DNA of 64,000 nucleotides from Chrysomallon squamiferum (GCA_012295275.1 CM022677.1:23312001-23376000); one strand, 5' to 3'; positions 14,631 through 50,450 are shown, counted from the first letter of the stretch. The notes: a model not told the origin generated them from the sequence alone. Made by a program: numbers and translations.

Positions 14631-17600
14631 AAAAATTAACCATGGTAATTAAACACAATCACAGCTTGCAATTAACATATATATATATAGCTTAACAAAA
14701 TAATAAATATCATTTAGCAAAATAATATATTATACTTTAACAAATAATATTTTAATCATTAAGTAAAATATCAACATATTTTAAAAATAGATTTTATAAT
14801 GTAGATAATAAGATGTAGTCTTTTCCTATAATTATTATTATTTTTTAATTATCATTATTATTGTGATTGTAATATTATTTATCTTACTTATAATATTATT
14901 ACTGGAGCTGTTGATAAACAGTTACTAAAAATTGAAATAACATAATATATGAATTGACGAAATTTCGGAATGTTACAAAAACAACACTGCAAATTGCAAT
15001 AATGATTTAAAATATTTATTAAAATTATAATTCTTGTTTCAGTTCGGTCAGGCATTGCATCACCTGTGACTGTTGCTGGAGTAGAAGACACTGTGGCTTC
15101 ACGTGAGAAAAGTAAGTTGAAGTTATAAATACACAGTGTAGTTTTTATCAATAGATGTGTGCAAATCTAAGAAAACGTCACTTGTGTCAATATACATGTG
15201 TCTGTAGTGCTCTGTGTTTTAGTATATGTCAGAAAATAAGTTTGTGTTCTTTTGTGTTAGGGTTAATGTGAATGTTTGCTGTTTGGCTCTGTGTTAATGT
15301 TGATGTGTTTGTGAGTTAGGCTTGCTGTATTTGTGGGTATGTGCATGTGTATTTTCAGATATGTGTGATTTTGTGTCTGATCTCTGTGCTTACTATATGT
15401 GTAAGTGTTTCTGTCTACCTCTGTGATGTATGTGTGTGTGCAAATTAATTTCATCTGTAGGTACATAATTAATTTATAAAAAGAAAAGAAAAAAAAAAGA
15501 ACAAAAAGAAACCAAAAAACCAATACAATCCCTGCACAAAAAAACAACAACAAGGAGGTAATATCTTAGTACGAGTCATAACTTTCAAAACAAACCATGG
15601 CTTCTGTTACTTCTACACGTGACAAAAATAAGATAGTTATAGATGGCTACATTTATGTGAAGCAGAAGGATCTCGAACGAGATGTGGTGTCGTACGAGTG
15701 TCAAATATGTAGATGAGGAAAGGTTAATAGTGGACAGTGTAAGGTTAAGGTCAATGGAGAAGCAGTGGGCAGACTGAATGAACCTACTCATGCGCCAGTT
15801 GTCGGCAGATCTCAAGCAATACAAGCTTGGGCAACTATGAAACGCCCCGCATTGGATACCATGGAAACACCACAGCAGATCCTTGCCACTGGCTTGCAGC
15901 AAATCACAATTAATAACTCCATTCAGAACCATGAGAAGGGCAAACAACACCTCAACCGTGACACAGTTCTCGTCCATTTCTAAACGGGAGCAATCATGTT
16001 CCCAGATGTTAATGTTCACGGATGCCTCTATCATCTAGCCCACTATGTCTGTCGTCGGATGCAGACTTCAGGATTACAGCAGCGCTATCATAACGCTAAT
16101 CATGGATTATTTCCAGGTTTCGTTCATTGGGCGTCCAGGTCATCGAACAGGCGAGGTCCCACATTTCCACACTCCCTGTGGAACTGTTATGATCGTGTTG
16201 AAGCTGGTCTACCTCGAACCAATAACAACATTGATGGGTGGCATCAACGCGTGGCTGCTTGTGTCAGCTGTTATCATCCAAACATCTGAATATTTCTGGA
16301 CATTTTGAAGAAGGAACACTCACCTAACAGAATGACTAGATCCTAGCAGGAGAAGGTCCACCCTCTCAGCGACAGGTATACAGAGATATCGGGCAACGCC
16401 TACAAACACTAGTCAGGGACTACCAGAACAGACCCCGTCTCAATTTCCTGCGTGGTGTGGCACACAATCTCTAAATGTAAATTTATTATAAACTCATTCA
16501 ACAGAATTTGCATTTCATTGTTTCATTTACGTTTTCATAATAAAAGATATAATAAACGGGGTAAACATCGGAGAGGGAATTGCCCTGCAACTGGTTTTTT
16601 TTAAACCTTTCACTTACACCACTACAGACATATGTGGTTTTGTATCTCTGTTTCTCTGCATTGTGTTTATGTAACTTTCTTATTTATGATATTAATTTTT
16701 TTTATTTGTTAAATTGTAGGTCATCTCAACAATAGGATTACTGAAGCCCACAGTCTGTTTGTGGAAACAAAAGCTTTCAGACATGCTAGAGATGCTCTGG
16801 CTGATGTTCAACACTTGATTCTTCTAGATGCGCCAGGCTGTGGCAAAACAACCATCTCCCTGATGCTGATGAGAAAATACATTAAAAAAAAATATCGTTA
16901 TTATTTTATTGATTCCAACGATGATTTTAATGTTATACATGACATTAATACTCGTGATAAAAATGTGTTGATTTTTGATGACTTTTTTGGAAAAAGTGGT
17001 TTAAAAGATTTTGTAAAATTGTCCAAAACTCTACAAGATTTGGACAGTATTAGTAGTAAACTGAATAATTTGAAACATGATGAGGATTCGCAGCATGATT
17101 TAAAAGTGATTTTCACTTCAAGAAACTACATTTTCGCAATGGCAAAACCACAGCTTGGACAGTACAAACGTACAATTATGAAAAATTCAAACGTAATTAA
17201 CTTGTCTGAGTATCCACTTACAGAGACGGAAAGAAAACAAATGTTATTAAAGCACTGCCAGTCTGTAAATATTGAAATGAGTGAAGAAAAATTAGGAGAC
17301 ATTGTAAAGAAAACAGAAAACACGATAGGCTTTCCCTACAGTTGTAAAATGTTTTCAAAAGTAAACGTTTTCCAGAAAATGCCTGAGTCATATTTTTCAA
17401 CGCCATTCATCTATCTTAAAGATCATTTGGCAGAGATTTTATTGAAAGGGACAGTGCCTGGTCAAGCGTCTGCTTTGGTATTAATGTTTCTACTGGAAGG
17501 AAAACTCATGATCAGAGATCTTGATCCCCGGACACGAAAGGAACCAAAAGTTGAAGAATATATGAACTGTTTATATGCTGATATGACTAAGGAGCCACAT

Positions 17601-20408
17601 GAAATAACTCAAGGTGCCAGGTCTTTGGAAGGTTCATTTTTAGAAAGAGACAACCAGACGTATGTGTTTACTCATCCAGCAGTCTATGATGCTATAGCTT
17701 CTATCATGGGTGAAAGAGATCCCAATTTGATCCTTAAACATTGTCAGATGTCATTCATCCTAGAATATGTTCATCTAGAGACGAACAAGTCAGGGATGAA
17801 CAAAACAGATGATTATGAGTGTTCAGTTACCATACCCGAAGTACATACAGCAATGATGGTAAAACGTTTTGCTGATGAAATAAAGGAACGTAATTTCAGA
17901 GAGACTTTACCACATGAGGTCTTCGAGGAAGAAACATTTGTTGATGATGTCATTGAAGAATTGGAAAGTGATGACAGTTTGCCTGATATATTTCACAAGT
18001 GTGACAGAACACATGGACACTGTTTTTTATTTTGGGCCACACTTTACTCGACACCACAAATTGTGAAAACATCACAAGAAACTAATTTTGTTAAACATTT
18101 TTTGGTGCAGAAAGCCTGTGAACGTTCTGAGTTTAATAACAGCGAACTGCTGGCTGGATTTCTTGGCTGTGCCTTAAGTGGGAACATGAAATCATTTGAA
18201 AGAATCATTGAAAATAAGAATAAATCTTCTAACTTAGAGAACGATAATGTGGCATCAGCAACAGTGGAAGAAATAATAAAAGGAAATTTGTTAAGATCAC
18301 TTTCAGAGGAAAATGAACAAAATTCACAGTTTGCATTCTTTGGCAACCAGAGAGATGGCCTACTTCATGTTGCCTGCATTCATGGTTATGCAGACATTGT
18401 AAAAGAGTTTCTGAAATTAGGGTGTATTGTGAACGGTCGGGGAGAGCTTGGCCGAACACCCTTAATGTACGCCAGCAGATATGGACATGAGGATGTTGTA
18501 AACATTTTACTAGACTTCCATGCTGATATTAACCTTACAGATGACGAAGGAGCAAGTGCACTTCACCTTGCTGCGCGTGGTGGTCACATCAGTGTGATGA
18601 AAATGTTCACTGATCATGGAGTTGATATCAATGAGAGAGGAGAGCACCAGAGAACACCACTGTTGTATGCCTGCAGATATGGATACTATGAGTTTGTAAA
18701 GTTTTGTCTTGACAATGGAGGTGACCTCAGCTTGAAATGCGATTATGATTCTTGTTTACATCTGGCTTGTATTTCTGGTAGACTTGATACAGTGAAACTT
18801 CTGGTGGAGAAGGGAATGGATGTTAATGAACGAGGAACGTTTTCTCGTAGCCCTGTTATGTATGCAATCCGACATGGAAATATTGAAATTGTTGAGTATT
18901 TGAAAGAACATGGAGCAGATTTAAATATTGCTGACGACAGAGGGGAAACTGCATTTTCTCTTGCAGTAGTTAGTGGAAACGTTGAACTGGCAAAACAGTT
19001 CCTTCCATTTGTTGAAGATCTAGTGAATGTATGTGACAAGGAAGGGACTACTCCTTTTGAAAAAGCCAGTGCATTGGGTCACACTGACATGATAAAATAT
19101 TTCATGGACAACAACAGGGAAGTCCTTCCTTTATCTCGTTGGCTTATTTCTGCATCTTACAAGGGTAGAATGGATATCATCAAACTGTTGGTAAAACAGT
19201 GTGATATCAATGAAAAAGGTCACAAAGGACGGACTGCTTTAATCACTGCTTGTCTTGGAGGGCAGGCAGAAACTGCAGAGTTCCTCATTTCACATGGAGC
19301 AGAGGTCAATCTTTGTGATGAATGTGACAATAATTGTTGGAACTATGCATGCAATAGCGGTTCAGTAGATTTAGTCAAAATGCTGCTCAAAAAAGGATTT
19401 ACACTGAAAACAAGAAGTCAAAATGAAATTACTGCTTTAATGTGTGCGTGCAGAAAAAATTCTTGTGAGCTTTTTGAGTTCCTTCTTGAAGCTGATAAAA
19501 AAAGTGTTGAAACATTGGATAAACATGGTTTAAACTGTCTTCATCACTGCTGCTTTTCAAAAAGTGATTGTCCAGTGTTATTAGAAAAACTGATTGCTCT
19601 TGGGTTAGATGTTAACAGCAGAGATGACAGTTTGAAGACTCCGGCTATGTACGCTTGTAGAAATGGTCTGACAAAAATTCTTAAATGTCTTATTAAGCAT
19701 AATGCCAACTTAAAACTAAAAGACAAGAAAGATCAGAACTGTCTACATTTTGCTTGCTGGACTAAGAGAACAGATATTGTACAAATTTTGATTGATCATG
19801 GGCTGAACATTAACTGCATAGACAACAATAAAACTACTCCTTTAATGGTTGCTTCATATAAAGGTAATCCAGCAGTGGCTGAGTTTCTTCTGGAGCAGGG
19901 GGCTGATGTCAACAAACAAAATAGCTTTGCTCGAAACTGTGTACACGAAGCTGCAAAAGGAAGACAGATACCAGTACTTGAAGTCTTCATCAAACATGGT
20001 GTTGACATGTACATAGAGGGCAGATATGGAAGGACACCATTCTTGTGTGCATGTCAGCAGGGAAACACAGATGTTGTAGAGTTTTTTAAAAAACAGGATG
20101 TTAGAATATTGGACAGAGATAGCAATGGAGCCAATGGCCTTCACCTTTGCTGCATGGGAAAGAAAGATAATTCTTCTGTAGCTAGAAAACTGATACACTA
20201 TGGAATAAATGTCAATGATAGGGACAATAATGGAATGAGTCCAATTATGTATGCTTGTTTACATGGTAATGAAGTACTTTTTAATTTTTTATATTCAAAA
20301 GGAGCTAGCATTCATTTTCAGGATAAACGCAGAAGAACATGTTTGGAGTTAGCTAGAAGTGGAGGGAACTCACGGATAGAAGCTAAGATTAGAGAATATC
20401 TAAACTGA
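14198..20408 (+). CDS. nSTAND3-type STAND NTPase + ~21 ankyrin repeat protein, copy 2, ~1277 aa; coding exons 14198-14273, 15043-15111, 16720-20408
   Basis: Same exon sizes, phases and splice sites as copy 1; ~50 aa differences in the 1215-aa ORF (manual count); no stops or frameshifts. Confidence 0.85.
15553..16588 (+). mobile_element. Decayed MULE transposon, intron 2 of copy 2 (left end deleted)
   Basis: FPDVNVHGCLYHLAHYVCRRMQTSGLQQRY (MULE GCxxH motif), PRTNNNIDGWH..HPNI, FLYWCH-like DGYIY..SYEC; stops and deletions. Confidence 0.85.
16720..20408 (+). CDS. Large terminal exon of STAND-ANK gene copy 2
   Basis: Acceptor ttgtag ending 16719; ORF to TGA at 20406-20408. Confidence 0.95.
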
Positions 20409-23455: not shown

Positions 23456-23501
23456 ATGACGATTCTACTGTGGCTTGTTTTTATTCTGGGATTTTTTATA
23501 G
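23456..23501 (+). CDS. Signal-peptide exon
   Basis: ATG in acaacATGa context, hydrophobic [15 protein letters not shown], donor ag|gtaacg phase 1. Confidence 0.75.
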
Positions 23502-23685
23502 GTAACGTTGTACTATTATTACTGTTAGTTATTAGAAATATATATATAGAGGGCTTATTAATAGGATTAAAAATATATAAAATTTTGTATGAAGACAAAA
23601 TTCTACTTTTTAAAGTTGCAAAATGATTGATAACATTCCAAAGGAATTTCCAACACTGATCTGAGTGTTTTTGCAAAAGGCAAGT

Positions 23686-23724
<39 letters not shown>

Positions 23725-23853
23725 TATAATTAATATATTTTTGAATGGAAGAGAACATTTACAAATATCCCTATTCAGTATTAAAAATTGAGAGTAAACA
23801 CTTTTACTGCTGTTTTCATTTTTTACATTATTATTTTTTTTCATTTTGTTGCC

Positions 23854-23905
<52 letters not shown>

Positions 23906-24438
23906 GTTCTTGCATCATCATCAAAATCTGTTTTCTTTTAGCTGAACCATTGGATTCAGGATCAGGTAAAAACACATACATAAAATAAAAATATTGTTTT
24001 GATTTTTCTATCATTATGAGTGATGACACTGCATAATACCTGTACAGGGTAATGGCTATCTTAATGCTTATGAACTGCTTTTGTTTTGAATGTTTATTGT
24101 TAGCAAAGAAAAGTATTTACAATTATAATTACTGAGGATAGCTGTTTATGTATTGTAAATTAAAATCATTTTTTAAAAATGAAAAAAAAAAAAGAAGAAA
24201 AAAGAAGAAACAAAAATTAGAATTACCATGAAAATATACTCTCAGGTGGAAGAAAACAAAATGATAGTTACTGTATTGTATATATAACTGTCACTTTCAC
24301 AGAAAAATCTTAATATTTTATTTATCTTCCTGACCAGTACTGTTACTGTGATAGTTGGCAGAATAAATTTGACATTATTTTATTGTCTTGCAGATTATGA
24401 CAGTAATGACAATGAAAGAGGTAGGTTCACACTGTACA

Positions 24439-24473
<35 letters not shown>

Positions 24474-27320
24474 CTGTGTTAGGTTTTCAGCAATAATATA
24501 ACATGATAAAAAAATGGTCATACTGCTTTTATTAAATATACATTTATATATTACTTTTTTATTTCATTTTAGATATATATTTATAATAATCTGTTTTTAG
24601 GAGATTAATAGTCTTTTAAAGGGTCTTCACATTAAATTATTTTATTTTCATCTATTTCTTGTTCTTATTATTCTCCTTCTTCTTATTATTATTGTTATCA
24701 TCATATTATTATTATTATGTTATTCTATTATTACTACTACTAATGTTGTCAATAATAAATATAATTATTAGTATTATAATTTGTTGTTATTCTTTTTATT
24801 ATTGCTGCAGATGTTTTTTCTTTTCCTTATTTTCACTGAAACTGTTAATTATGTATATCCATTTCTTTTGAAACTGTGGTACTTTGTGCAATGAACATAA
24901 AATTATTTTATTTTATTTTTAGACCATCAAACTAATGAATTTGAATTGTACATGAATAATTATAATTGTACATATATGTGTGTGTGTGTGTGTGTGTGTG
25001 TCTGTCTGCCTAAGAAATGCACATACAAATGTACTTGAACATCAAAAGCTATATAATCCAAAAAAATACTAATTAAATGTCAAAATTTAAGAATCTTTTA
25101 GTACATTTTGCATTATTTATTATACATTATATACATCTATGTCTATATATATATTTATATATGCATATTTTTCCATCAAAACTCCCAGTATTTTCTCCTG
25201 CCTTCAGAAAGGTGAATGTGGAAAAGCTTTTTGCTGCTAATAGAAAAGCATTCATATTATTTACTTGAATAAAATTAAAGAAATAAATAGCTGGTTTTAA
25301 TGAAATAGTATAATCAAAGCTGAATCTTGTTTGTGGCCCATTAGGCTAAAATAAGATTGATGAGTGGTCAATGAGAGTGACCTAACTTTGATTTAAAAAC
25401 TGTTGTTTGTTATTACATAGATGTTGTTAAGAATGATTGTTATTGTTGATATTTATATACTTTTTTTTTACTTATTAAATGCATTTAAAATTTCAGTTGA
25501 ACCATCTGAATCAGGAGCAGGTAAAACTAATTTAAAACATTTATTTATTTATTTATTTATTTATTTATTTGTTTATTTTTATTTGCTTTAGGCAATTTTA
25601 CTTATCTAAAAGATTTAGCCTGTAATCTTACTGCTTAGTGTTTGATGCATTTTCATCTAGAAAAAGGTTATTCCATATAAAGTGCATGAAATACCATTCT
25701 TGCTAATATATGTTCTTTATTATATACATATTCTAAAGGTTCTTATAAATAAATTAATATAATTAACATGTCTTCCCAAATAAATGGAAATAAAATACAT
25801 TGTAATGAAGGATCAAAAATTATTTATTAATTTATTCTGTTTTCAGGTCCACCTATCATTACAGGTGAATATATATATATATATATATTTTTTTTTTATA
25901 TATATATTTTTTATATATTTTATATATGCAGCATACAGACACACACAGACACCCAGACACACACAGACACACACACACACACACACACAAAAACACACAT
26001 CTTACTACACACCAGAGGCAGCACTGTTTTATTTTGTTTATTAATTTATTGAAAAACAGATTCACAGAAAATGTTTTTAACATTTATCTGTTTCTTCTTC
26101 TTATTATTGATACTAATCATAATATTCATCATCATAATCGTCATAATGATTATTATGATTATTTTACAATTTTATTAACATTATTAATATTACTGTTGTC
26201 TTTATTATCACAATTCTTCTTAAAATTTTGTTATTATTATTACTATTAGTATTGTTATTATCTACTTGCTGTTAAAATCTTATATTATATTAATTATCAC
26301 TGCAAATAATCTTCTTATTTTTTATAGATGAAGAAATCCCCAGTGAAAAAGGTATCTTCAAAAAAACAATGACCCCCCCAAAACATCTTAAATAAATAAA
26401 CAAACCAAAACTACCTAAAAAACCACATAAGAATTATCTTTAGGCATTAGTTGGTTTAAACCTGTATTTATGTAATTTTATTATCAGAAAAGGTTCTACA
26501 TTATTGTACTATATTGTAATATTATTCACTATTATTACAGTATTTTATATTTAGCAGATCACTTTTTGATACAGTTATTACAGACTATATTGTACAGTGA
26601 ACAAACAGCTGTTTAATACATAGGCAGGCCAAAATATCTGCATTCTTGTTTTGTTTGTTAATTTATTTATATAAAAAAACTAAAACTAAAATAAATTATT
26701 GTCAAAAAATAAACAATAAAAAAAATTAAAAAATACATAATAAATAAATAAAATAAAATGAAATAAAATAAGAAAAATAATTTAAAAAATGAAATAATAG
26801 ATTTGATAAAGGGTCTTCATATTAAATTATTTTCTTTTCATCTATTTCTTGTTTATATTATTCTCCTTATTATTATTGTTATCATCTTCATCATCATCAT
26901 ATTATTATTATTATTATTATTATGTTATTCTATTATTACTACTACTAATGTTGTCAATAATAAATATAATTATTAGTATTATAATTTGTTGTTACTATTC
27001 TTTTTATTATTGGTGCATATGTTTTTCTTTTCCTTATTTTTACAGAAAATGTTTATAGTGAAACAGGTATTGTGTTTTAATCTTACATAAAGAAACAAAT
27101 AAACAATTATAATTTGTACAATCAGAACAATTTTAAATGTGGCCTTGCTGTGTGGTGAGAAATAACAGAAGGAAAACGCATGTACTAGACAGTATTGTAC
27201 ATTTAATAAAACACTTTTTAGTACTAAACTGTGAGAAATAAAATTAGGAACAAACCACTATACAGCATGTACATTTAATATAACAGATTTTGATATTATT
27301 TTTAGGTCTATACACTGTAC

Positions 27321-27357
<37 letters not shown>

Positions 27358-30300
27358 TGAAATAAAATTAGGTCAAAACAGTACATTTAATAGAACAGAT
27401 TTTAATACGATTATTATATGTCTATGCTGTACAGTTATTATTATTATTATTCCCATCATGTGAAATGGAAATTAGGCCAAACACTACAGCATGTATATTT
27501 AATAAAATAGATTTTGAAATGATTATTATAGTTATTATTATTATTAGTGGTAGTAGTAGTAATATTTTATAGTCTTATTAGAATTAGTATTAGTATTAAT
27601 ATTATTTTCTGGTTTGTATTATCACTGCAAATGATTTTCTTTTCTTATTTTTAGCAGATGAAACCTCCACTGAAACAGGTATTCTGTTTTATATTAAATA
27701 AACAAACAAGAATAATTAATCAGTTTAGTTAGTACTTGATTTACAACTAGTTTCTATTCATAAAGCTGCATTTATCTAAATTTAGAACTATTTTGAACAC
27801 TATCAATGCTTTAAATCCTACACTTTCCAGTGAAAAATAACAATAGGAACAAACTACTTTACAATACAGCACTGTATTTTTATTTGATTATTATAGTCTA
27901 TTCCATGCTGTTGTTATTATTGTTCTGTTAGTATTAATATTATTATGTGGTTGCTATTAGAATCTGTATTATCACTGCAAATGTTTTTTCTTTTACAGAA
28001 GAAAGCTCTGCTGAGACAGGTATTCTGTTTTATCTTAAGAAAAAAATAGAAACACAAAAACAAAAAACAAAGAAAGAAACAAAAGAATTAATCTGTTCAG
28101 ATAGTACTGGATTAACCAATGGTTTTCGTTCTTGTAGCTGCATGTACACACATTTGTACACTTAGAACAACTTTGAATACACTGTCAATGCTTTAATGCA
28201 GCCTACACTACAGAGAGAATTACAATTATGAACAAAGTATTGTATATTGAATAGAATGGAGATTTAATACGATTATTATACGATAGAACAGGTCTGATAT
28301 AGGTTATAATATACTATTTCCTTGCACATTGCAATTAATTCTTGATTATCTTTTTAATCTTGAATTTTAGATGTTGACGAATGTTTGACTGGCCAACATT
28401 ACTGTAATCCAGTGGAAGAGGAGTGTAAAAACACAATTGGCTCATTTAAATGTGTTTGTAAGTCAGGATATATAAAAGTCATGGGCAACTGCTTTGGTGA
28501 GTTTATCATGCTACATATTTGTTGTTAATGTAAATGTAACACACAGATTAAAATATATTAAAACCCTTTTTGTTATTTTAAGATACAGATTAATGTTGTG
28601 GTAATATTTAACTAGTCAGTCCTGAAAGTTTGGGTTCTTTAGTCCTTGTGGTCCAGATGGTGTAGCCTTTTCAGAATCTGTACCAAGTGTCTGAGACACT
28701 CCTGGATGCAGCTTGCGTATCTTCTCAAGGACTAGCCCCAGAGTTTGCTGTAAGTTCTGTCTTCAAGTCTCTATTTGAATGAGGGTTGTCTTCATAGACA
28801 TGATCTTTCAGCTAGCCCAGTAGAAATCTCAGGGCTTAAAATCAGGTGGGGCTCATTTAGGGTCACCTACTGATCAGTCAGTCTGCCATTTGTTGCTGCA
28901 GCTGCATGTCAGTGTTTGGTTTGAAGAGTCCAAGGTAGCACCACCCTGCTGAAACCACTGCTCATTATGAGTTATGCCTGCACATCTCCCTGCTGTATTC
29001 AATCCTCTGGTTGTGTAGTGCTGCTGACATGGCCTAACAGAAGAAAATGAGGCTCAGCAGAGAATCATCAAGAAAGTCGGGGTCTTAATACTTTTTTTTC
29101 AATACAACATCAACACATGACAATTATTTTGACCAATTCAGCTTCTGTTTAATCTTTGTTTTGTAATGGAACAACTTAACATCCATGATCAGAATCCACC
29201 TCACTGGTTCACTGGGAATGTGTAGCTGCACCTTTGGCTGGACTTCTTAGGGCTGCAACCAACAGCATCCTGGACAGCACCAACATTACCTGCCACTCTC
29301 ACATTCAAACGTCGTCCATTTTTGACCCTTCACGTTTAGAGGTCAGGCTTTGAACAGCTCCCTTTTCTCTAAACTTACTGACCTATCTGCAAAATCTTGC
29401 TTTTGTACAGATAATGATTAAAATGGAAATGCCTTCAAAATTTTGCCTGTACAGATTTAAACAACTTGGTTTCAAAACATGAGTGCATGCAAGACCTTTT
29501 CTGTTCAGTTTCCATGGCATTCTCACAAAACAAAATTATTGATGAATCTTTTTGTTATCATGTCCTTTAGAAGAATCTGCATAATAAGAACAACAGCATT
29601 ATTATTCATCGTTTCATCTGCTGTAGTATGGGTTGCAACCATTTTGGGTCTTTTAAACCTATTTAATCAAGTGTGTTTGGATACTATTGTTTAAAATATT
29701 CTGTAAGTTGTATTTTTTTCTGCTTAATTAAAATTAATTTATAATGTAAAGGGTGGGCTTGATGTCTTATTGTTAATTTTATTGTATTATCATTATGATT
29801 CAAAAGTATTATTATTTTTAATTTTATTTCATGAGGTGCTTGCCTACTAAGATAACTTAATTGTGAATCTTTATTCAAATCATGTCAGCATTTAAACAGT
29901 TATAAAATAATATTTTCTCAGTCATTTTATTTCAATAAAACAAAACGTTCAGTATCCCCAATTTAAGAACCACTAGAAGATGTTTGGACCCTTAGAACAT
30001 TTTCAAATTACATTTCTTTTAATTTTTTTTGTTGAATAAATTATTGTAAATCTGAATTTAAATCCTGATTCAATAATTTTAATAAAGTTTGAATCTTCAT
30101 TTAGAGAGATCTCAGTTTCTGCATTAAAGTTTAGTAGAAAAAGGCTAGTTTCATTCTTACTTACCTAAATATTTGTAAATCTTGTATTGTAGAATGCTCA
30201 CATTTTTATTTATCCAATTATTTATAAATCTAGACTTAGAAAGATAATTCTTTCTCTTTAGTAAAAATCTTTATTTACTTGCTGGTAATTCTAGTGGGTA

Positions 30301-33300
30301 CTGTTTTTAACAAACATTTTTAAAAGTTAATTTGATTTTTTCAGACATTGATGAATGTTTTGTTGGAACACATAACTGCCCAGAAGATCAGCAGTGTTTT
30401 AATCTACAAGGAGCTTTCTTGTGTTGTAATGTTGATGAAGAATGTGGTAAATATAAAGGGTGTAACTGTATTAATTATGTGTGAAAGTATATTTTTGTGT
30501 TATATGCATTTGTAATAATTTGGTTTTGTGTGTGTGTTTGTGAATATTTGTTTTTAGGTGTTTATATTGTTTATACTTGTATTGATATATTAGAATAAAA
30601 CTGCAGCTTTGCATCAATGTTTATGTATTTGTTGATTTATTGTTATTACTACTATTATTATTAATATTATTGTTATTGTTATTGTTTTGTCTTGATTATA
30701 TAAACATTTGTCTTCTTAGATCTTTATTAAATTATTTTTATTATTTATTTATTTATTTTTTATTATTTTTACTTTTTTTATGATTTCAGTTCCATCATCA
30801 ACACCAACATTAGGTAAATAATTTAAAACATTTTATTTATTGTATAAAAATATTTATATTTATGTATTTATTTTAAACTATCATCAGTGTAAATATAATT
30901 TAGATATAAAGGTATATTCACAAAAATTTCATAAACTTCATATTGATACAAAAAACATCTCATTATTCCTAGTTAAATGCTTGGTTAAAGTAAAATTTGA
31001 AAGCTGTGTTTAGAGAAATTTGATTTAAAAGAAAATGATAGATAACCTAATATATACCTTTATCAGCCAACCCACCATGTACATTTAAAATACAGATACC
31101 ACTGATTCTAAATTCAAAACCAGAACCTACTTTTTTATTTATTATTTTTATTTTTTAAATTAAATTAATCATGCTGGTTTGAAACAGATCCCTGATTGGA
31201 GCTGCTGGCCACAGTTACTCATGCTTGTTTATAAATATCTGCAGAGTCTCTCTGGCAATAGAAAACACTGTGCTGTATATCCCAGCAACTTCAGATCAAC
31301 TTATAAATCTAGCCTCTGAACTTACATATTGGTACTAAACCAAAATTTCATGAGGACCACCATAAAAAAACTAGAAATGAAAGATGTAATTAATTTTATT
31401 TTGAAATGCTTCAGATGGGTAAAAGCATAAGAAAACAGATAATTCATTTATATATATATTGTTGATTTTTCAATTGATAATATTTTTCAATTTACTCCAT
31501 TTTTCTCAACAATGAAAATTTTCAAAAGTGTCTGAATATCGGTACATACACAACCAGAGCTACTTCATTAATAGATGAATACGTCTGTGTTATAATAAAA
31601 GAATTAAAAACAAGTGAACTAAGTCTGTGTTATAATAAAAGAGTAAAAACATTCATTTTTGTTTTAATTTTAATACAATGCTTTTATTTGTTTATTTCTG
31701 TTTTCTTTATTTGTTTATTTTTAATTTCCTATTTTTTTTTTTTTTTTAGAGTTAACAACTGCTAGAGTCACTAGAGGTGAAGGTATATTAATTTTTTCTT
31801 TATCTTGTTCAGCTGCAAAAGAAGTACAAATATTTTAAAATACAAAATAGTTATCTTGAAATCATATCAGTAATAATGTTTCCTGTAGTTTGTGTCACTG
31901 CATACATAGTCTCTAAAATCTTTATAACCTTCCCTTAGTGATGTGAACTGTGTGTGTGTGTGTGTGTGTGTGTGTTCAGTTTATGTTTTATTTGTTATTT
32001 TCTTGATATTATTATTGTTATTATTATTATTATTTTTTTATTTTATTTCCAAAAAACTATTTTTCATTTGCTATCCAGTCTTAATTAATCAGTTATGAGA
32101 ATAAACAAGTAAAGTATTATTTTTTTTAATTATTGTTATTTATGACTGCATCCATTTGTCTGCATGCTATTTGCTTTCCTTGCTGTGAAATGTTAATTTG
32201 TAACAGAGAATAAAACAAAAGATTACATGTCCTGAGCATCATCACCTCTATGTTTCAGATGTTGATGAATGTGCAGAAGGCAGAGATAACTGCAATCGCG
32301 CTGAAGAGGAATGTCAGAACACAGCTGGCTCGTTCAGGTGTGTGTGCAGACAGGGATTCAAAAAGGTCATGGGCTCATGTTTTGGTGAGACATTTCCAAA
32401 ACATGTTTTAGTTCTGTTGCTAAATGAGTCTAACAAGAATCTTTCTAAATCATGTTGATTTTTTTTAAAGTGATATTCAAATTACTGAATGTAAAGTGAT
32501 ATTTAAATTACTGAATGTAAAGTGATATTTAAATTACTGATTGTAAAGTAATGTTTAAATTGTTAAATGATTGTAAAATCATATTTAAATTACTGATTGT
32601 AAAATCATATTTAAATTACTGATTGTAAAATCATATTTAAATTACTGATTATAAAATCATATTTAAATTACTGATTGTAAAGTGATGTTTAAATTACTGA
32701 TTGTAAAGTGATGTTTAAATTGTTAAATGATTGTAAAATGATATTTAATTACTAAATGATTCTAATAAAAATCTTTACAAATCATGTTGAATGATTGTAA
32801 AGTGATATTTAAATTATTGATTGTAAAATGATATTTAATTCCTAAATGATTCTAATAAAAATCCTTCTAAATCATGTTGAATGATTGTAAAGTGATATTT
32901 AAATTATTCTCATGTGTTGATAGGCTACATAGTTCATTTGAAATGTCTTCTTAAATTTGATGAATTCTTGCAAAATGATTCTCATTCATTTTAAAACATT
33001 CTGTTAGTAATTCATGACATGAATGGATATTATTTCCTGATTTGCTTACTAATTAAATTTAATTAAGAAAGAGAATACTTATTTATATAGATATGTGCAT
33101 AATTCATACATTTCAGATGTTGATGAATGTCACGTTGGTATACATAATTGTTCGTCAGATGAAAACTGTATTAATATTCGTGGCAGTTTCATGTGTGAAT
33201 GTAAACCAGGTCGAACATGCAGTAAGTTAAATTCAGTTAGATTTAGCGTAATGGGAGCATTTGATCTGAATGAATATGTGTGCTTGTCTATCTGTATTCT

Positions 33301-34625
33301 GTTTGATCTGAATGCATATGTATGTGTGTGATTGATGTGAATGTGTATGTGTGCTTGATATGAATGTGTATGTGTGCTTGATATGAATGTGTATGTGTGC
33401 TTGATACGAATGTGTATGTGTGCTTGATACGAATGTGTGTGAATGTGTATGTGTGTGCTTGATACGAATGTGTATTTGTGCTTGATACGAATGTGTATAT
33501 GTGTGCTTGATATGAATGTGTATATGTGTGCTTGATATGAATGTGTATGTATGTGCTTGATATGAATGTGTATGTGTGTGCTTGATACAAATGTGTATGT
33601 ATGCTTGATACGAATGTGTATGTGTGCTTGATACGAATGTGTGCTTGATGTGAATGTGTATATGTGTGCTTGATATGAATGTGTATGTATGTGCTTGATA
33701 CAAATGTGTATGTGTGCTTGATACGAATATGTATGTATGTGCTTGATACAAATGTGTATGTATGTGCTTGATATGAATGTGTACGTGTGTGCTTGATATG
33801 AATGTGTATGTGTGCTTGATATGAATGTGTGTGCTTGATATGAATGTGTATGTATGTGCTTGATATGAATGTGTATGTGTGTCCTTGATATGAATGTGTA
33901 TGTGTGCTTGATATGAATGTGTATGTATGTGCTTGATACGAATGTGTATGTGTGCTTGATACAAATATGTATGTATGTGCTTGATACAAATGTGTATGTA
34001 TGTGCTTGATATGAATGTGTATGTGTGCGTGATATGAATGTGTATATGTATGCTTGATATGAATGTGTATGTATGTGCTTGATATGAATGTGTATGTATG
34101 TGCTTGATATGAATGTGTATGTGTGTGCTTGATATGAATGTGTATGTGTATGCTTGATATGAATGTGTATGTATGTGCTTGATATGAATGTGTATGTATG
34201 TGCTTGATACGAATGTGTATGTGTGTGCTTGATATGAATGTGTATGTATGTGCTTGATATGAATGTGTATGTATGTGCTTGATATGAATGTGTATGTATG
34301 TGCTTGATATGAATGTGTATGTGTGTGCTTGATATGAATGTGTATGTGTGTGCTTGATATGAATGTGTATGTATGTGCTTGATATGAATGTGTATGTGTG
34401 TGCTTGATATGAATGTGTATGTGTGTTCTTGATATGAATGTGTGTGATCTGTGTGTAATCAGGACTCATAATGTGTGTTGAAACTACCATTGTTATAGGT
34501 ATTTTTATGATATTTGTAAGCAAAACATAAATTTGTTTTTGTTTTCTTCAGTAAATAATTTCTAATATTTATTGTTATTATTATTATTTTTCAGCAAAGA
34601 GGCAGGATGTGTTTGAAGATTTAGG

Positions 34626-34694
<69 letters not shown>

Positions 34695-36630
34695 ACAGAG
34701 CTTATTGTAAAGAGAGTAGTATAGTTTAGTGTTTAATAGTGTGTAGTGTCATTAGTCTAGTATAGTACAGTACTTTACTAACATTACATTACAGAACAAT
34801 AGAACAATATTAGTATTGTACAGTAAAATATAGCTTAGCTTATTATGCTTTCGTATCACATAGTATGGTATGGAATACAAAACCTATTTCAGTTACTGGT
34901 GGGTGGTCTGAATGGACAAAGTCAGTGAGTGAGTGTTTATCATCATGTTTTCAAGAAATTTATCTCTTAAGAAGCTGTACTAGTCCATCTCCATCGCGAG
35001 GAGGTCCTTCTTGTACTGGGGATGAGCAAATCATTTCATATCAGTCTTGTGTTGGAGAGGCTTGTGTAGCAGGTAAACAACAATAAAAACAAGAACCAGA
35101 TATACAACACATGTACATTAGCATGCACATGCACACACACAACACACACACAACAGATGCATACCAAATAAATACAAAAAATAAAAAAGTAACAAAACAA
35201 TCTATCCATGTTAATCTGTGCAGCATTACTGTTTTACTTTATCAGATTTGACCTCCTTTAGAAAACTGTTTACAATCAGGTGAAAAATTTGTTAAATTAT
35301 TATTAGTTCTTCCATTTATTTGATTATGTTTGAACAAACAGCAATTCAAATTAAGAAACTGTGGTTCTGTAAATAAAACACTGTGACCAGACATATCTGG
35401 TCTTCTTTACAAAACAAAAATGTTAAAGTGGACTTACTTTGTGTTTGATTTATTTTCAGGTCGCCCACAATGGCGTAAAAAGGGTAATTAAATAAATAAA
35501 ATTGTCTTAAGAACATTTTACAACTGTTAATACACACATTACAATAACAACAAGAAAAGATAATTGATGGGATATCAGTGGAAATGTCTTAAAATGAACT
35601 TTGTTGTTCATCTCTTTGTGGCAAAAATAAACAAAATTGACCTAGAATCAAATTAATAAACATCTCTTAATTTTTGTTTAGCTATAGCTACACACAAACA
35701 CACACACTCACACATACTTCTAATATGATGTCCTAATATAATATACCTTACTGAGTGATGTATAGTATTAAGTGACATACATTATGAAGTGATGTACAGT
35801 ATTATGTCACACATACACAAACGCATTATTTTTTGGATGAATACTTTATGATGATACATTTTACATTTTATGGTTGATTGATGTTTTATAATTTTACAAA
35901 ATTGCAATTATAAAGGGACATATAATGAACTGATATACATTCTAATAGGACATGATGAACTGATATACATTCTAATAGGATATATAATGAACTGATATAC
36001 ATTGTAATAGGACATAATGAACTGATATACATTCTAATAGGAGATATAATGAACTGATATACATTCTAATAGGACATATAATGAACTGATATACATTCTA
36101 ATAGGATATATAGATTTTGTTTTGATTACAGGGTTCTGGTCAGGTTGGAATATTTACTTCGTGTTTCCATGTATGACAACCTGTATAAAAGTTACCATAT
36201 TTGGGCGAAAGTGTGTTTCTGGATTTGACTGTACTGGAGTTTACCGAACAAGACGTGGGGAATCATGTATTGGTGATTACTGCGACCAAAGTGAATATTT
36301 TATTTCTCTTTCTTGATAAATGAAATTTAAGGAACAGGTTCATATCAGTTTTAACTGGTATAACATAAACCCACTCTTCAAGCATCAGAAATGTTTTAAT
36401 ATTTAACATTTTTTGTTTAGTTAACCTTTGTGGTTTTGTATATAGTGGTGCAGTGTAATGTAGCAGTGTTCAGCTACGGTAATTTGTGTAGTGTTTAGAG
36501 TAAGGTAATATTAGTATGGTATTTGTTGCAGAGTTTAGTTTAGTTATGCTAATAATGCATAACTTTATATAATATGTAAATAATAAAAAATTAGGAAACA
36601 ATAACTACAGATATATATATAATACAATAC

Positions 36631-36675
<45 letters not shown>

Positions 36676-37499
36676 AACAGTTAACAATACATGAAAAACT
36701 TGAATTAGAAAAGCAAGGAAACAAATTTATTATTTAAAAAATAATAATTGATAAAAACCACTATAAAAAAATAAAAAGTGAAGAAAGAAAAAAAAAAAAA
36801 ATGAAGAAGAATAAAAATAAAATAAAAAAGCTAGCAAATACAACAACTAGAAAGAAAACTAGTTTTGAAAATATATTTTATTATTATTTGTTATTATTGG
36901 TCTTGCTTTTTCTTCAGGTCAGATTGTTACAGTTTTTGAAGGTATGTTGTAAGTTGCATTGCTTTGTGTTACTTTAATACAATGTTGAATTTAGTCATTG
37001 AAAATAAATATATGCCTGAAAAAGACATATTACTGTCAGTCTGTATCTCTCTCTCTCTCCGTCTCTCTCTCATTTATGTTTTTATTTTATTTTCAGATCA
37101 ACCATCAGTAAATACGCCAGGTATTGAAATTATATTTATAAATGTTTTTTTTTTTTCTCTTGATCTAATATCCATTTTTCTTTCTACTTTTTGTTTGTTG
37201 TTTTTGTTTATTAGTCCAAATAGTACATTACAATTATTTAAGGAAAATCTCTGTGTGTGTTCATGCATACATGTGTGTTGTGTCTGTGTATGTGTCTAAA
37301 CTTTGGTACAGGACTAATTATTATTATTATTATTATTATTATTAAAAACATTGAATAAAATTTATTCATTTCATTTCAGAAGTAAAGTTTATACCACCAC
37401 AAGGTAGGTAAATCCTTTTTTTAAATTAAATTTTATTTTTCATGTTTCACATTCAGTGCATATTCTAAATACAGGTGTGCAAGGGTGTGCATGCATGTG

Positions 37500-37530
<31 letters not shown>

Positions 37531-38773
37531 TCTTGTTGGTGTAAAATAAACACATTTTTTTCTAAGGTCTCATGTTTCATTTATTTGTGATTTTTAAATA
37601 TTCTTTTTTCTTGTTAACATGAGACCATTTTTTCAAAATAGTTGTTTTAAATATATTTAAGGCATTCATTTGTTAATAAAACAATAACCTCAGAATTAGA
37701 TAAAGTAAACACACACAGAGAGAAAGAGAGTGGAAGGAACACACAGAGTTTGACCCAAAGAGAGAGCAAAACAATGTAAGAAGATATTTTGTTTCATTTC
37801 AGTCACATATCCTCCTTCAAGAGCAAAATATGGTAAATTACTAATTTTTTTAATCTGTTCATACCAACATATTCATATTATTCACACTAAAGGAGGTATA
37901 TGTGCACACACACACACACAAACAAGGACTGGTTTTTCATGGATTATATTCTTTCCCGTCTTTGTTAGAATAATACAAATACCACTTATTGAAAAGAACT
38001 GTCCATTGGGGGCAGAGCTTTCATCTCTTGCATCAGCATTGTAACTTTTCTTTACAAACAAATTAAGTAAAAACAATTTTGGTATTATTATGCTGTCAAG
38101 TGGTGTTAGTATATAGATAATATAAATGATATTGCACTGCATTCCATTTACTGAGATTTTGTTTCAGCTCTCCTAATGTATACCTACATTCCTACATACA
38201 TAAATACATATGTATGAACAAACAAACACACACACATAAGAATGTGTGTGTGTATATGTGTATTTGTACATATATTTTTATATATGTATGAAAACACACA
38301 CTGTACTATACTTGTATATATATCATGTATCTGTATATACAGAAACACACACAAATTTATACAAACATACATGCAGCTTTAGATATATATATATATATAT
38401 ATATATACAAACACCAGATTTATTATTTATTTATTTTGTATAGGTGGAGCATCAGATGAAGTTGTTGCTGCAGTAGCTGTTCTTGCTGTTCTTGTTATTT
38501 GTTTGTACACAGGTTTTCTTTTTTACTACAGGTAAATATCCAAGATAAAATAAAATTAAACCAATTAAAATAGCAAATAAAATAAATAAATAAATAATAC
38601 ATTGTATATGGTTTGTGTAATATACTTCACTCACAGATAGATAATGTAATATATGATTATTTTTAACAAGGAAAATGAGACTAATGGTGAAGAAACAAGA
38701 AGAAGTAACTGTGTCTAGGACAGCTGAGGCATCCAGCCACGAAAATAAAGGCCTAGAGAGAAATCCTACATAA
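23456..38773 (+). CDS. Micro-exon-rich type I transmembrane protein (~490 aa): signal peptide, acidic S/T stalk, 4 Ca-binding EGF, 2 TSP1, TM, short cytoplasmic tail
   Basis: Exons: 23456-23501 ([15 protein letters not shown]), 23644-23679, 23942-23965, 24394-24420, 25497-25520, 25847-25864, 26328-26351, 27046-27066, 27658-27678, 27999-28019, 28371-28496, 30345-30446, 30790-30813, 31750-31776(/31782), 32259-32384, 33117-33221, 34595-34624, 34893-35072, 35262-35279, 35460-35483, 36132-36290, 36918-36941, 37097-37120, 37380-37403, 37803-37832, 38444-38531 (TM), 38671-38773. All extracellular exons are phase 1-1 and stop-free. Confidence 0.75.
28371..28496 (+). CDS. Ca-binding EGF exon 1
   Basis: ttag|[42 protein letters not shown]|gtgagt, 126 nt. 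Confidence 0.93.
28640..29520 (-). mobile_element. Decayed Tc1/mariner-superfamily transposase remnant in an intron
   Basis: Minus-strand fragments: [40 protein letters not shown] (~FSDEAHF), WFQQGGAT (~WFQQDGA), PD..P.DF....[10 protein letters not shown]; many stops and frameshifts. Confidence 0.8.
30345..30446 (+). CDS. Ca-binding EGF exon 2 (shortened, adjacent CC)
   Basis: tcag|[34 protein letters not shown]|gtaaat, 102 nt. Confidence 0.9.
32259..32384 (+). CDS. Ca-binding EGF exon 3
   Basis: tcag|[42 protein letters not shown]|gtgaga, 126 nt. Confidence 0.93.
32468..32910. repeat. ~25-bp minisatellite (ttaaattactgattgtaaagtgatat)
   Basis: Direct reading, >12 imperfect units. Confidence 0.9.
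33117..33221 (+). CDS. Ca-binding EGF exon 4
   Basis: tcag|[35 protein letters not shown]|gtaagt, 105 nt. Confidence 0.93.
33310..34445. repeat. ~22-26-bp minisatellite (gtgcttgatatgaatgtgtatgtat), ~45 units
   Basis: Direct reading; explains the spurious His-rich ORFs. Confidence 0.97.
34630..34691. repeat. (CT)n microsatellite
   Basis: Direct reading. Confidence 0.95.
34893..35072 (+). CDS. Thrombospondin type-1 (TSP1) exon
   Basis: [14 protein letters not shown]...[17 protein letters not shown]...C....C; 180 nt, AG/GT bounded. Confidence 0.9.
35916..36112. repeat. ~32-bp minisatellite (ggacatataatgaactgatatacattctaata) x6
   Basis: Direct reading; ends at the TSP1 exon acceptor. Confidence 0.92.
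36132..36290 (+). CDS. Divergent TSP1 exon
   Basis: GFWSGWN...CMTTC...RKC..CTG...CIGDYC; phase 1-1; alternative in-frame acceptor at 36113. Confidence 0.8.
38444..38531 (+). CDS. Transmembrane exon
   Basis: [30 protein letters not shown], phase 1-2, followed by a basic stop-transfer sequence in the next exon. Confidence 0.85.
38671..38773 (+). CDS. Last exon, cytoplasmic tail
   Basis: Phase-2 acceptor; (R)[33 protein letters not shown]. Confidence 0.75.
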
Positions 38774-38819: not shown

Positions 38820-39300
38820 GCTAACTGCACAATATTCTCAAACTGTGTCTGTTGTATTTATTATAATAATTGTACGTATTGTCAATGGTATTTTTTTATA
38901 TATTGTACGTATTGGCCAAATGTATTTGTTTTATGTTATATTGTTAACTGTACAGCATTTGTCAAATGTATTTGTTTTATGTTATAATGTTAATTGTACA
39001 GTATTTGCCAAATGTATTTGTTTTATATTATTATATTGTTAACTGTACAGTATTTGCCAAATGTATTTGTTTTATATTATTATATTTTTAACTGTACAGT
39101 ATTTGCCAAATTTTTTGTTTTATATTATTATATTTTAACTGTACAGTACTTTATATATTTCTTTTGTTATTATATTGTTAAAGTATTTTCTGTATGTATT
39201 TGCAACACTACTATTATGTTATTTATTTATTTGTTGTATGTTATTAGAGTGTTATAATGTTCAGTATTTTCTGTATGTATTTGTTATTACACTGTTTATT
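38820..39300. repeat. ~45-bp degenerate tandem repeat in the putative 3'UTR
   Basis: ttaactgtacagtatttgccaaatgtatttgttttatatta units. Confidence 0.8.
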
Positions 39301-49989: not shown

Positions 49990-50450
49990 ACACACACACA
50001 CAAACAAAATATTACATATGTATGTAACACAAATATATAATTTGACACATAATTAATACAGAACATTCTTTATATTTACCACATTCTTCATCAACATTAC
50101 AACACAAGAAAGCTCCTTGTAGATTAAAACACTGCTGATCTTCTTGGCAGTTATGTGTTCCAATCAAACATTCATCAATGTCTGAAAACATCAAATTAAC
50201 TTTTTTTTGAATGTTTGCTAAAAACAGTACCCACTAGAATTACCAATAAGTAAATCAAGATTTTTACTTAAAGAGAAATAATTATCTTTCTAAGTCTAGA
50301 TTTATAAATAATTGGATAAATAAAAATGTGAGCATTCTACAATTCAAGATTTACAAATATTTAGATAAGTAAGAATGAAACTAGCCTTTTTCTACTACAC
50401 TTTAATGTTGAAACAGATCTCTCTAAATGAAATTCAAACTTTATTAAAAT
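49990..50450 (-). pseudogene. Inverted duplicate of EGF exon 2 plus flanking introns (exon 50080-50181)
   Basis: Reverse complement matches ~30076-30540; encodes [34 protein letters not shown] with intact cag|...|gtaaat. Confidence 0.85.

What the first reader, a model, noticed from the sequence alone, without database searches (positions are those of the whole stretch)
23456..38773. Hidden micro-exon gene: EGF/TSP1 surface receptor whose stalks are built from ~18 symmetric 18-36-nt exons
Seen: 18 short segments with AG acceptors and GT donors (one GC), all multiples of 3, phase 1-1 and stop-free. They encode [137 protein letters not shown] and [10 protein letters not shown], and link a signal peptide, 4 EGF-Ca, 2 TSP1 and a TM exon into one ~490-aa frame. 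Established: runs of symmetric micro-exons define Schistosoma micro-exon genes (MEGs), which diversify by exon skipping. Inference: a MEG-like membrane protein, probably outside flatworms, in which any extracellular exon can be skipped in frame, giving combinatorial control of stalk length, charge and glycosylation. Gene predictors would likely miss it.
Basis: partly seen in the sequence, partly recalled or inferred. Interest (0 to 1): 0.85.

Follow-up and report, generated by a model that had tools for sequence, protein, structure and literature searches.

The report
Snail surface protein with micro-exon linkers
An expressed gene, likely from a snail, is predicted to have 26 exons of which 17 are only 18-36 bases long; an RNA contig shows four of these tiny exons spliced in and one other proposed one left out, and they likely encode flexible spacers in a predicted cell-surface adhesion protein, while mix-and-match skipping remains untested.

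Summary
The gene is real and expressed. All 18 proposed segments exist, are multiples of 3 and open in phase 1. A simple splice rule gives 16 of 17 frame-keeping candidates on the sense strand and none on the antisense strand; shuffles give 0.9. One spliced RNA contig tests five: four are included and the 18-nt exon at 35262 is left out. Thirteen are untested by RNA. The revised product is about 485 aa: signal peptide, acidic head, 4 EGF-Ca, 2 TSP1-type domains, one membrane helix, 34-aa tail. It is not a Schistosoma MEG: micro-exons give only 29% of the coding length, and the nearest named relatives are TSP1/EGF membrane proteins of the snail Gigantopelta aegis. Several micro-exons arose by tandem duplication of intron-exon units; one copy has decayed. 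That history explains the symmetry without alternative splicing. Combinatorial skipping is not shown, though annotated isoforms of the relatives differ by 7-16-aa linker pieces. Similar gene layouts are published (chicken BG, SmVAL6, SmPoMuc), and this scan has noted micro-exon genes on other DNA (81 notes, at least 32 genomes).

The parts
23456..23501 (+). First coding exon, predicted signal peptide (46 nt, ends in phase 1)
   Evidence: ATG, GT donor, mean hydropathy 2.59 over residues 2-16; no SignalP run; not tested by RNA
23644..23679 (+). Micro-exon 1 (36 nt), GC donor; the weakest of the untested ones
   Evidence: Good GC-type donor but AAG acceptor without a pyrimidine tract, acceptor score -6.4; not tested by RNA
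23942..23965 (+). Micro-exon 2 (24 nt), acidic head
   Evidence: Found by the fixed rule; 19 of 24 nt identical to micro-exon 4; not tested by RNA
24394..24420 (+). Micro-exon 3 (27 nt), acidic head
   Evidence: Found by the fixed rule; not tested by RNA
24600..24870 (+). Decayed copy of the intron-exon unit of micro-exon 7: upstream intron nearly identical, acceptor AG and donor lost
   Evidence: Alignment A1
25497..25520 (+). Micro-exon 4 (24 nt), acidic head
   Evidence: Second-best score with matrices trained on large exons only; missed by the fixed rule; not tested by RNA
25847..25864 (+). Micro-exon 5 (18 nt)
   Evidence: Best score; found; not tested by RNA
26328..26351 (+). Micro-exon 6 (24 nt), first of four duplicated units
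   Evidence: not tested by RNA
27046..27066 (+). Micro-exon 7 (21 nt), duplicated unit
   Evidence: not tested by RNA
27658..27678 (+). Micro-exon 8 (21 nt; tandem acceptor at 27655 gives 24 nt), duplicated unit
   Evidence: not tested by RNA
27999..28019 (+). Micro-exon 9 (21 nt), duplicated unit
   Evidence: not tested by RNA
28371..28496 (+). EGF-Ca exon 1 (126 nt)
   Evidence: PF07645 E 6.9e-13; 56% identical to an EGF of P0047
30345..30446 (+). EGF-Ca exon 2 (102 nt)
   Evidence: PF07645 27.2 bits, cut-off 27
30790..30813 (+). Micro-exon 10 (24 nt), linker
   Evidence: included if the contig-length arithmetic holds (weak)
31750..31782 (+). Micro-exon 11, linker: 27 nt (donor after 31776) or 33 nt (donor after 31782)
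   Evidence: contig-length arithmetic weakly favours 33 nt
32259..32384 (+). EGF-Ca exon 3 (126 nt), paralogue of EGF exon 1
   Evidence: PF07645 E 3.6e-13; 64% amino-acid identity to EGF 1
33117..33221 (+). EGF-Ca exon 4 (105 nt)
   Evidence: PF07645 E 4e-9; its last 2 nt precede micro-exon 12 in the RNA loose end
34595..34624 (+). Micro-exon 12 (30 nt), linker; in the RNA
   Evidence: Loose end of the X1 contig matches the model at 30 of 30 nt
34893..35072 (+). TSP1 exon a (180 nt); in the RNA
   Evidence: X1 contig, 0 differences; thrombospondin-1 E 1.6e-7
35262..35279 (+). Proposed 18-nt micro-exon that the RNA contig leaves out; likely not a functional exon
   Evidence: Joint 35072 to 35460; G>T at 35279 in run X2; acceptor score -2.7; only micro-exon that codes for a cysteine
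35460..35483 (+). Micro-exon 13 (24 nt), basic linker between the TSP1 units; in the RNA
   Evidence: Piece of the X1 contig between two GT..AG joints
36132..36290 (+). Divergent TSP1-like exon b (159 nt); in the RNA
   Evidence: X1 contig, 0 differences; hhalign probability 78; 33% over 57 aa to P0024
36918..36941 (+). Micro-exon 14 (24 nt), next to the membrane; in the RNA
   Evidence: Loose end of the X1 contig matches the model
37097..37120 (+). Micro-exon 15 (24 nt); first 8 nt seen in the RNA
   Evidence: Last 8 letters of the 30-letter loose end
37380..37403 (+). Micro-exon 16 (24 nt)
   Evidence: not tested by RNA
37803..37832 (+). Micro-exon 17 (30 nt)
   Evidence: missed by the fixed rule; not tested by RNA
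38444..38531 (+). Exon for the predicted membrane helix (88 nt, phase 1-2)
   Evidence: Best 19-residue hydropathy 2.69
38671..38773 (+). Last coding exon: cytoplasmic tail without tyrosine, stop
   Evidence: Open to TAA in the model

Best explanation
This is an expressed gene, likely of a gastropod, predicted to encode a single-pass cell-surface adhesion protein of about 485 aa whose likely unstructured parts are built from 17 micro-exons (four seen in RNA, 13 predicted) that are likely spliced in together in the main transcript. Shown: splicing of TSP1-a, TSP1-b and four flanking micro-exons into one RNA; EGF-Ca and TSP1 homology; tandem duplication of intron-exon units. Inferred: EGF-Ca and TSP1 domains bind partners or matrix outside the cell; the micro-exon-coded pieces (no cysteine, 23% Ser/Thr, an acidic 72-aa head with 21 Asp/Glu against 3 Lys/Arg) act as spacers; the 34-aa tail without tyrosine points to adhesion or coating rather than ITAM/ITIM signalling. 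Inferred origin: because the whole extracellular part is in phase 1-1, any small intron-exon unit can be duplicated or lost without a frameshift, so spacer length and charge change by exon birth and death over evolutionary time. A few linker exons are likely optional, as annotated isoforms of relatives suggest.
For: RNA contig with four micro-exons included in a row and both loose ends matching the model at 30 of 30 nt. Frame-keeping enrichment 16 of 17 against 0 antisense candidates. Four micro-exons sit in duplicated intron-exon units, a fifth copy has lost its splice sites, and two more pairs resemble each other. Among the four units exon identity (12-16 of 21 nt) is no higher than that of the upstream flank (72-93%), which fits selection on frame and splice sites rather than on exact sequence. 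0 of 12 differences in run X2 fall in the 363 nt of RNA-confirmed exons (p 0.05). Nearest named relatives are G. aegis single-pass TSP1 or EGF-Ca/TSP1 proteins, whose RefSeq isoforms differ by 7-, 13- and 16-aa linker pieces and by whole domains.
Against: 13 of 18 proposed micro-exons were not tested by RNA, among them the whole acidic head. One contig at depth 13.5 from 1 of 3 RNA runs cannot show how constant inclusion is, since contigs drop rare forms. 1 of 5 tested predictions failed, so 2-3 more may be wrong. No ligand, localisation or tissue is known; adhesion is inferred from domain type alone. Signal peptide and membrane helix rest on hydropathy only. The exon structures of the G. aegis relatives were not seen, and their isoforms are computed annotations.
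Confidence: 0.65

Rival explanations
1. MEG-like diversifier: the micro-exons are skipped in many combinations, giving a pool of surface isoforms that differ in spacer length, charge and glycosylation, for example at a host-microbe or self-recognition interface.
For: All 24 internal extracellular exons of the 27-exon model are 3n and phase 1-1. One proposed exon is absent from the RNA. Tandem acceptor at 27655/27658 and two donors at 31776/31782. Isoforms of three G. aegis relatives differ by 7-16-aa linker pieces. Duplicated micro-exons have diverged as much as their introns. MEG skipping is described in PMC4015677 (passages).
Against: Only one spliced form was laid (2 records from X1, the other a 62-nt repeat piece). 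The four strong micro-exons tested are all included. The absent exon has the marks of a false call. Symmetry follows from duplication alone. No excess of variants in confirmed exons (0 of 12). The gene seems single-copy in the window, unlike MEG families.
Confidence: 0.22
2. The domain exons and 3' micro-exons are real, but much of the 5' micro-exon run is decayed or never used, so the true protein has a much shorter head.
For: 1 of 5 tested predictions failed. One duplicated unit has visibly lost its splice sites. Micro-exon 1 has a poor acceptor and a GC donor. A G. aegis relative goes from signal peptide to first TSP1 with only 0-16 residues between.
Against: 7 of the 9 head exons pass the fixed rule and all 9 are 3n and open; diverged duplicates kept both splice sites and 3n length; micro-exon GC content (39%) equals that of large exons (40%), not introns (26%).
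Confidence: 0.08
3. Same gene structure, other role: the acidic head and calcium-binding EGF units serve as a membrane-tethered matrix protein in shell or other mineral formation rather than in cell adhesion.
For: Acidic 72-aa head (21 Asp/Glu) and four EGF-Ca units; relatives carry the automatic name 'coadhesin-like', and coadhesin is recalled as a coral skeletal matrix protein (from memory, no call).
Against: No tissue data; the automatic name reflects shared TSP1 repeats; acidic spacers are common in surface proteins.
Confidence: 0.05

Closest known systems
Gigantopelta aegis single-pass TSP1 and EGF-Ca/TSP1 proteins (XP_041376280.1 LOC121388832; 'coadhesin-like' XP_041356405.1, XP_041356389.1, XP_041355826.1)
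   Same: Same style of EGF-Ca (56% over 39 aa) and TSP1 units (33-42%), N-terminal hydrophobic leader, one C-terminal membrane helix, short tail; annotated isoforms differ by short linker pieces.
   Different: None has this domain order; best full-model match is 28.7% over 317 aa; they lack a long acidic head; their exon structure was not seen. The name is automatic, not a defined family.
Schistosoma micro-exon genes (MEGs)
   Same: Runs of symmetric exons of at most 36 nt, signal peptide, secreted or membrane-anchored product, exon duplication (PMC4350168, PMC8293314, PMC4015677, PMC5825161: passages read).
   Different: MEGs are mostly micro-exon (up to 75%), lack homologues outside flatworms and have demonstrated skipping and high dN/dS. 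Here 29%, six known domains, gastropod relatives, skipping not shown.
SmVAL6 of Schistosoma mansoni
   Same: Ordinary domain exons combined with a MEG-like run of small symmetric exons (PMC4015677, PMC4350168: passages).
   Different: SCP domain, Group 2 VAL without signal peptide, isoforms shown; here a membrane protein with micro-exons in five separate places.
Chicken BG genes
   Same: Single-pass membrane proteins with 13-36 exons of 21 or 24 nt, with alternative splicing among them (PMC4046983: passages). Shows that the layout is published outside flatworms.
   Different: BG micro-exons code for cytoplasmic heptad repeats; here they are extracellular and non-repetitive.
SmPoMuc polymorphic mucins
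   Same: A 27-nt exon amplified with its flanking introns as tandem units (PMC2576457: passages).
   Different: SmPoMuc units are near-identical (introns over 94%) and give large transcript diversity; here units are old and diverged and diversity is not shown.

Membership tests
Schistosoma micro-exon genes (MEG) | Coding region made mainly of exons of at most 36 nt (up to 75%) | tested here: not met
   441 of 1476 nt (30%) with 18 exons, 423 of 1458 nt (29%) with 17; definition from PMC8293314, PMC4015677 passages
Schistosoma micro-exon genes (MEG) | Micro-exons symmetric (3n, same phase both sides) | tested here: met
   18 of 18 are 3n and phase 1-1
Schistosoma micro-exon genes (MEG) | Signal peptide; secreted or membrane-anchored | tested here: met
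   Hydropathy only: 2.59 over residues 2-16 and one 19-residue window of 2.69; no SignalP or TM predictor on hand
Schistosoma micro-exon genes (MEG) | Restricted to flatworms, no homologues elsewhere | tested here: not met
   EGF-Ca and TSP1 domains; nearest named relatives of this gene and of the neighbouring ankyrin gene are from the gastropod G. aegis
Schistosoma micro-exon genes (MEG) | Pool of isoforms by micro-exon skipping | tested here: inconclusive
   One contig, one form: 4 included, 1 doubtful exon absent; contigs drop rare forms
Schistosoma micro-exon genes (MEG) | Raised dN/dS | tested here: inconclusive
   No orthologue to compare. 0 of 12 variants in confirmed exons; duplicated micro-exons no more conserved than flanks
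Gastropod 'coadhesin-like' TSP1/EGF-Ca single-pass proteins (informal group) | TSP1 units of the same type | tested here: met
   TSP-a 42% to P0168, TSP-b 33% over 57 aa to P0024; 723 proteins at E up to 0.001, best 150 listed, none above 48%
Gastropod 'coadhesin-like' TSP1/EGF-Ca single-pass proteins (informal group) | Leader, one C-terminal membrane helix, short tail | tested here: met
   (hydropathy and inspection)
Gastropod 'coadhesin-like' TSP1/EGF-Ca single-pass proteins (informal group) | Common descent of the whole gene rather than shared shuffled modules | not tested
   No tree built; domain orders differ; relatives' gene structures not available

The most novel reading that the evidence does not exclude
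A gastropod surface-protein family has independently evolved MEG-style variation: micro-exon cassettes placed between folded EGF and TSP1 modules are skipped in many combinations, so each cell or tissue sets the reach, charge and glycosylation of a recognition protein, and new cassettes are still being born and lost by tandem duplication.
Probability: 0.22. Interest if true: 0.75.

Novelty: new variant of a known kind. Interest (0 to 1): 0.48.

Why it matters
It is an RNA-backed case of a micro-exon-rich surface gene in a likely mollusc, where my nine literature searches found no description of one. The locus records how such exons arise and decay (duplicated intron-exon units, one dead copy), which bears on how MEG-like genes originate. 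It also shows that symmetric micro-exon runs alone are no evidence of antigenic-style variation. If skipping proved combinatorial, it would be a convergent diversification system in a free-living animal. Practically, no close match to it came back from the protein searches, so mollusc annotations may be missing such surface proteins.

Tried and rejected
No whole genome is held, so copy number and paralogues outside the window are unknown. Searches for a full-length match: TSP-a exon, longer proteins, no candidate; EGF exon 1, 3 generic EGF proteins; TSP-a against 1.84 billion representatives, best 150 of 723 listed, at most 48% identity, while an identical domain would score about 121 bits and rank among them. 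ESM Atlas on TSP-b gave only scores of 0.76-0.78, uninformative. Pfam does not recognise either TSP exon; EGF exon 2 was first scanned in a wrong frame and rescanned. RNA runs X3 and X4 laid nothing; no proof of absence. Contig-length arithmetic: 1 of 12 exon combinations leaves exactly 30 nt of EGF exon 2, the overlap expected at an assembly branch; kept as a weak hint only. The 3' length fits several combinations and decides nothing. Extra candidates 30262-30297 and 37457-37474 pass the rule but were not added: no RNA, and the first lies in a recently duplicated intron piece. A second micro-exon gene around the inverted EGF copy at 50.1 kb was sought and not found. Chance origin of the segments rejected. 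MEG membership rejected (membership test). DeMarco et al. 2010 is not held and is cited second-hand only. No structure prediction or complex prediction was run. Earlier-findings look-ups by sequence, place and specific words returned nothing.


Full report
Observation. Reading 22.5-40.5 kb and scanning for splice sites recovers the proposed segments. A 27-exon model built from coordinates is open from ATG 23456 to the stop at 38773: 1476 nt, 491 aa. The 18 micro-exons are 18, 18, 21, 21, 21, 24 (eight times), 27, 27, 30, 30 and 36 nt; their GC content is 39% against 40% for large exons and 26% for introns. All 18 end in G and 16 in AG.

Is it more than chance? With matrices trained only on large domain exons, candidates scoring 12 or more that are 3n and open number 15 of 28 on the sense strand and 0 of 7 on the antisense strand. 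A fixed rule gives 16 of 17 on the sense strand, no candidate on the antisense strand and 7 of 16 in the other 95.8 kb; at a looser cut-off 16 of 21, against 0.88 +/- 0.86 (maximum 4) in 200 shuffles. On the + strand outside the gene 0 of 8 candidates are 3n and open. The rule was set after seeing the donors, so the frame result, not the candidate count, is the independent part. It recovers 14 of the 18 and adds two unlisted candidates.

RNA. Four runs were listed and laid on 34750-36400. RNA run X1 has a 1043-nt contig (depth 13.5) in three pieces with no differing letter, joined by two GT..AG introns: 35072 to 35460 and 35483 to 36132. Its loose ends equal the model's prediction at 30 of 30 nt on each side: the end of EGF exon 4 plus micro-exon 34595 before, micro-exon 36918 plus 8 nt of 37097 behind. 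So four of five testable micro-exons are spliced in. The fifth, 35262-35279, is left out. It has a weak acceptor, carries a G>T change at its last base in run X2, and is the only micro-exon coding for a cysteine, which would leave the ectodomain with an odd number. I treat it as a probable false call; allele-dependent or rare inclusion is not excluded. X3 and X4 laid nothing. Of 12 differences in X2, none lies in the 363 nt of confirmed exons (p 0.05); X2 may be the sample the window came from. Thirteen micro-exons remain predicted. The 348 nt of contig upstream of TSP-a equal the two linker micro-exons (24 and 33 nt), EGF 3, EGF 4, micro-exon 34595 and exactly 30 nt of EGF 2, the overlap expected at an assembly branch (word length 31, assembler behaviour recalled); an inverted copy shares the last 65 nt of that exon and could cause such a branch. 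This is a weak hint, 1 of 12 combinations.

Protein. Without the doubtful exon: 26 exons, 485 aa. Four EGF-Ca units reach the Pfam cut-off. TSP-a matches thrombospondin-1 in PDB (E 1.6e-7); TSP-b is divergent. Micro-exons code for 141 aa without cysteine, 23% Ser/Thr: an acidic head of 72 aa (21 Asp/Glu, 3 Lys/Arg), linkers of 17, 10 and 8 aa, and 34 aa next to the membrane. The single N-glycosylation sequon is in EGF 4. The tail has 34 aa and no tyrosine.

Origin of the micro-exons. Exons 26328, 27046, 27658 and 27999 lie in homologous intron-exon units, and a fifth unit near 24836 keeps about 240 nt of nearly identical upstream intron but has lost acceptor and donor. Exons 23942 and 25497 share 19 of 24 nt, and 25497 and 30790 share donor flanks. 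EGF 1 and 3 are 64% identical, suggesting duplication of a linker-plus-EGF-pair block (inference). Among the four units exons are no more alike than their flanks, yet splice sites and 3n length persist. That EGF and TSP1 modules are typically class 1-1 exons is recalled knowledge; it makes symmetry the default in such a gene and removes it as evidence for alternative splicing.

Organism and relatives. The neighbouring nSTAND3-ankyrin gene has its best match in the gastropod Gigantopelta aegis (50% over residues 1-520). Of 144 fetched proteins hit by the model, 13 matched both the EGF and TSP regions; six proteins were looked up, five were named and all five are from G. aegis. P0047 (Ig, EGF-Ca, TSP1-type units, membrane helix) is the closest. 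RefSeq isoforms of three relatives differ by 7-aa (two genes), 13-aa and 16-aa pieces between domains, and by whole domains. These are computed annotations and I did not see their exons, but they are the best support for optional linker exons in this group. No close match to this gene was found.

Comparison with what is known. MEGs are described as mainly made of symmetric exons of at most 36 nt, up to 75% of the coding length, restricted to flatworms, with skipping and high dN/dS (PMC4350168, introduction and passages; PMC8293314, passages; PMC4015677, passages; PMC5825161, passages; bioRxiv 10.1101/2023.06.21.545858, first third; PMC3512318, passages, little used). This gene fails two defining features. 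Domain-plus-micro-exon hybrids (SmVAL6), micro-exon units amplified with their introns (SmPoMuc, PMC2576457, passages) and membrane proteins with 13-36 exons of 21-24 nt (chicken BG, PMC4046983, passages) are published. Searches (listings only) showed no paper on such a gene in a mollusc; most subscription papers are outside the library and no supplements were read. That vertebrate mucin-type surface genes, caseins and tropoelastin also use small symmetric exons is recalled, not checked. The scan's own index holds 81 notes on symmetric micro-exon genes in at least 32 genomes, including cephalopods; these are unchecked notes and were used only as leads.

Verdict. A real, expressed micro-exon-rich surface gene of a likely gastropod: a new variant of a known gene layout, not a MEG.

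Noticed in passing
window 49990-50450 (- strand): Inverted 465-nt copy (92%) of EGF exon 2 with its flanks; exon open with intact splice sites; 3 differences in 102 nt, all changing amino acids; no micro-exon run or clear host gene around it.
   Followed up: partly
window 6576-10271 and 16713-20408: Two tandem, near-identical 1231-codon open frames for nSTAND3 NTPase plus ankyrin repeats, about 10.1 kb apart; best match 50% in G. aegis.
   Followed up: partly
window 53.8-63.9 kb (+ strand): A run of at least ten TSP1 exons with recently duplicated pairs (55.7, 56.5, 57.3 kb; 56.2, 57.0 kb); several use AAG acceptors; probably a neighbouring TSP1-repeat gene.
   Followed up: partly
P0004, P0017, P0023, P0024: The G. 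aegis relative of the ankyrin gene and three 'coadhesin-like' proteins are all listed on a contig of 40,821,028 bases, which may mean a conserved neighbourhood.
   Followed up: no
window 33312-34443: A 25-nt tandem repeat of 46 copies fills most of the intron between EGF exon 4 and the next micro-exon; smaller arrays at 32466-32908, 35916-36112 and 38854-39203.
   Followed up: no
   Followed up: no
window 5434-6065, 15585-16308 and near 21.5-22.7 kb: Repeated fragments that look like transposon remains beside the duplicated ankyrin genes.
   Followed up: no
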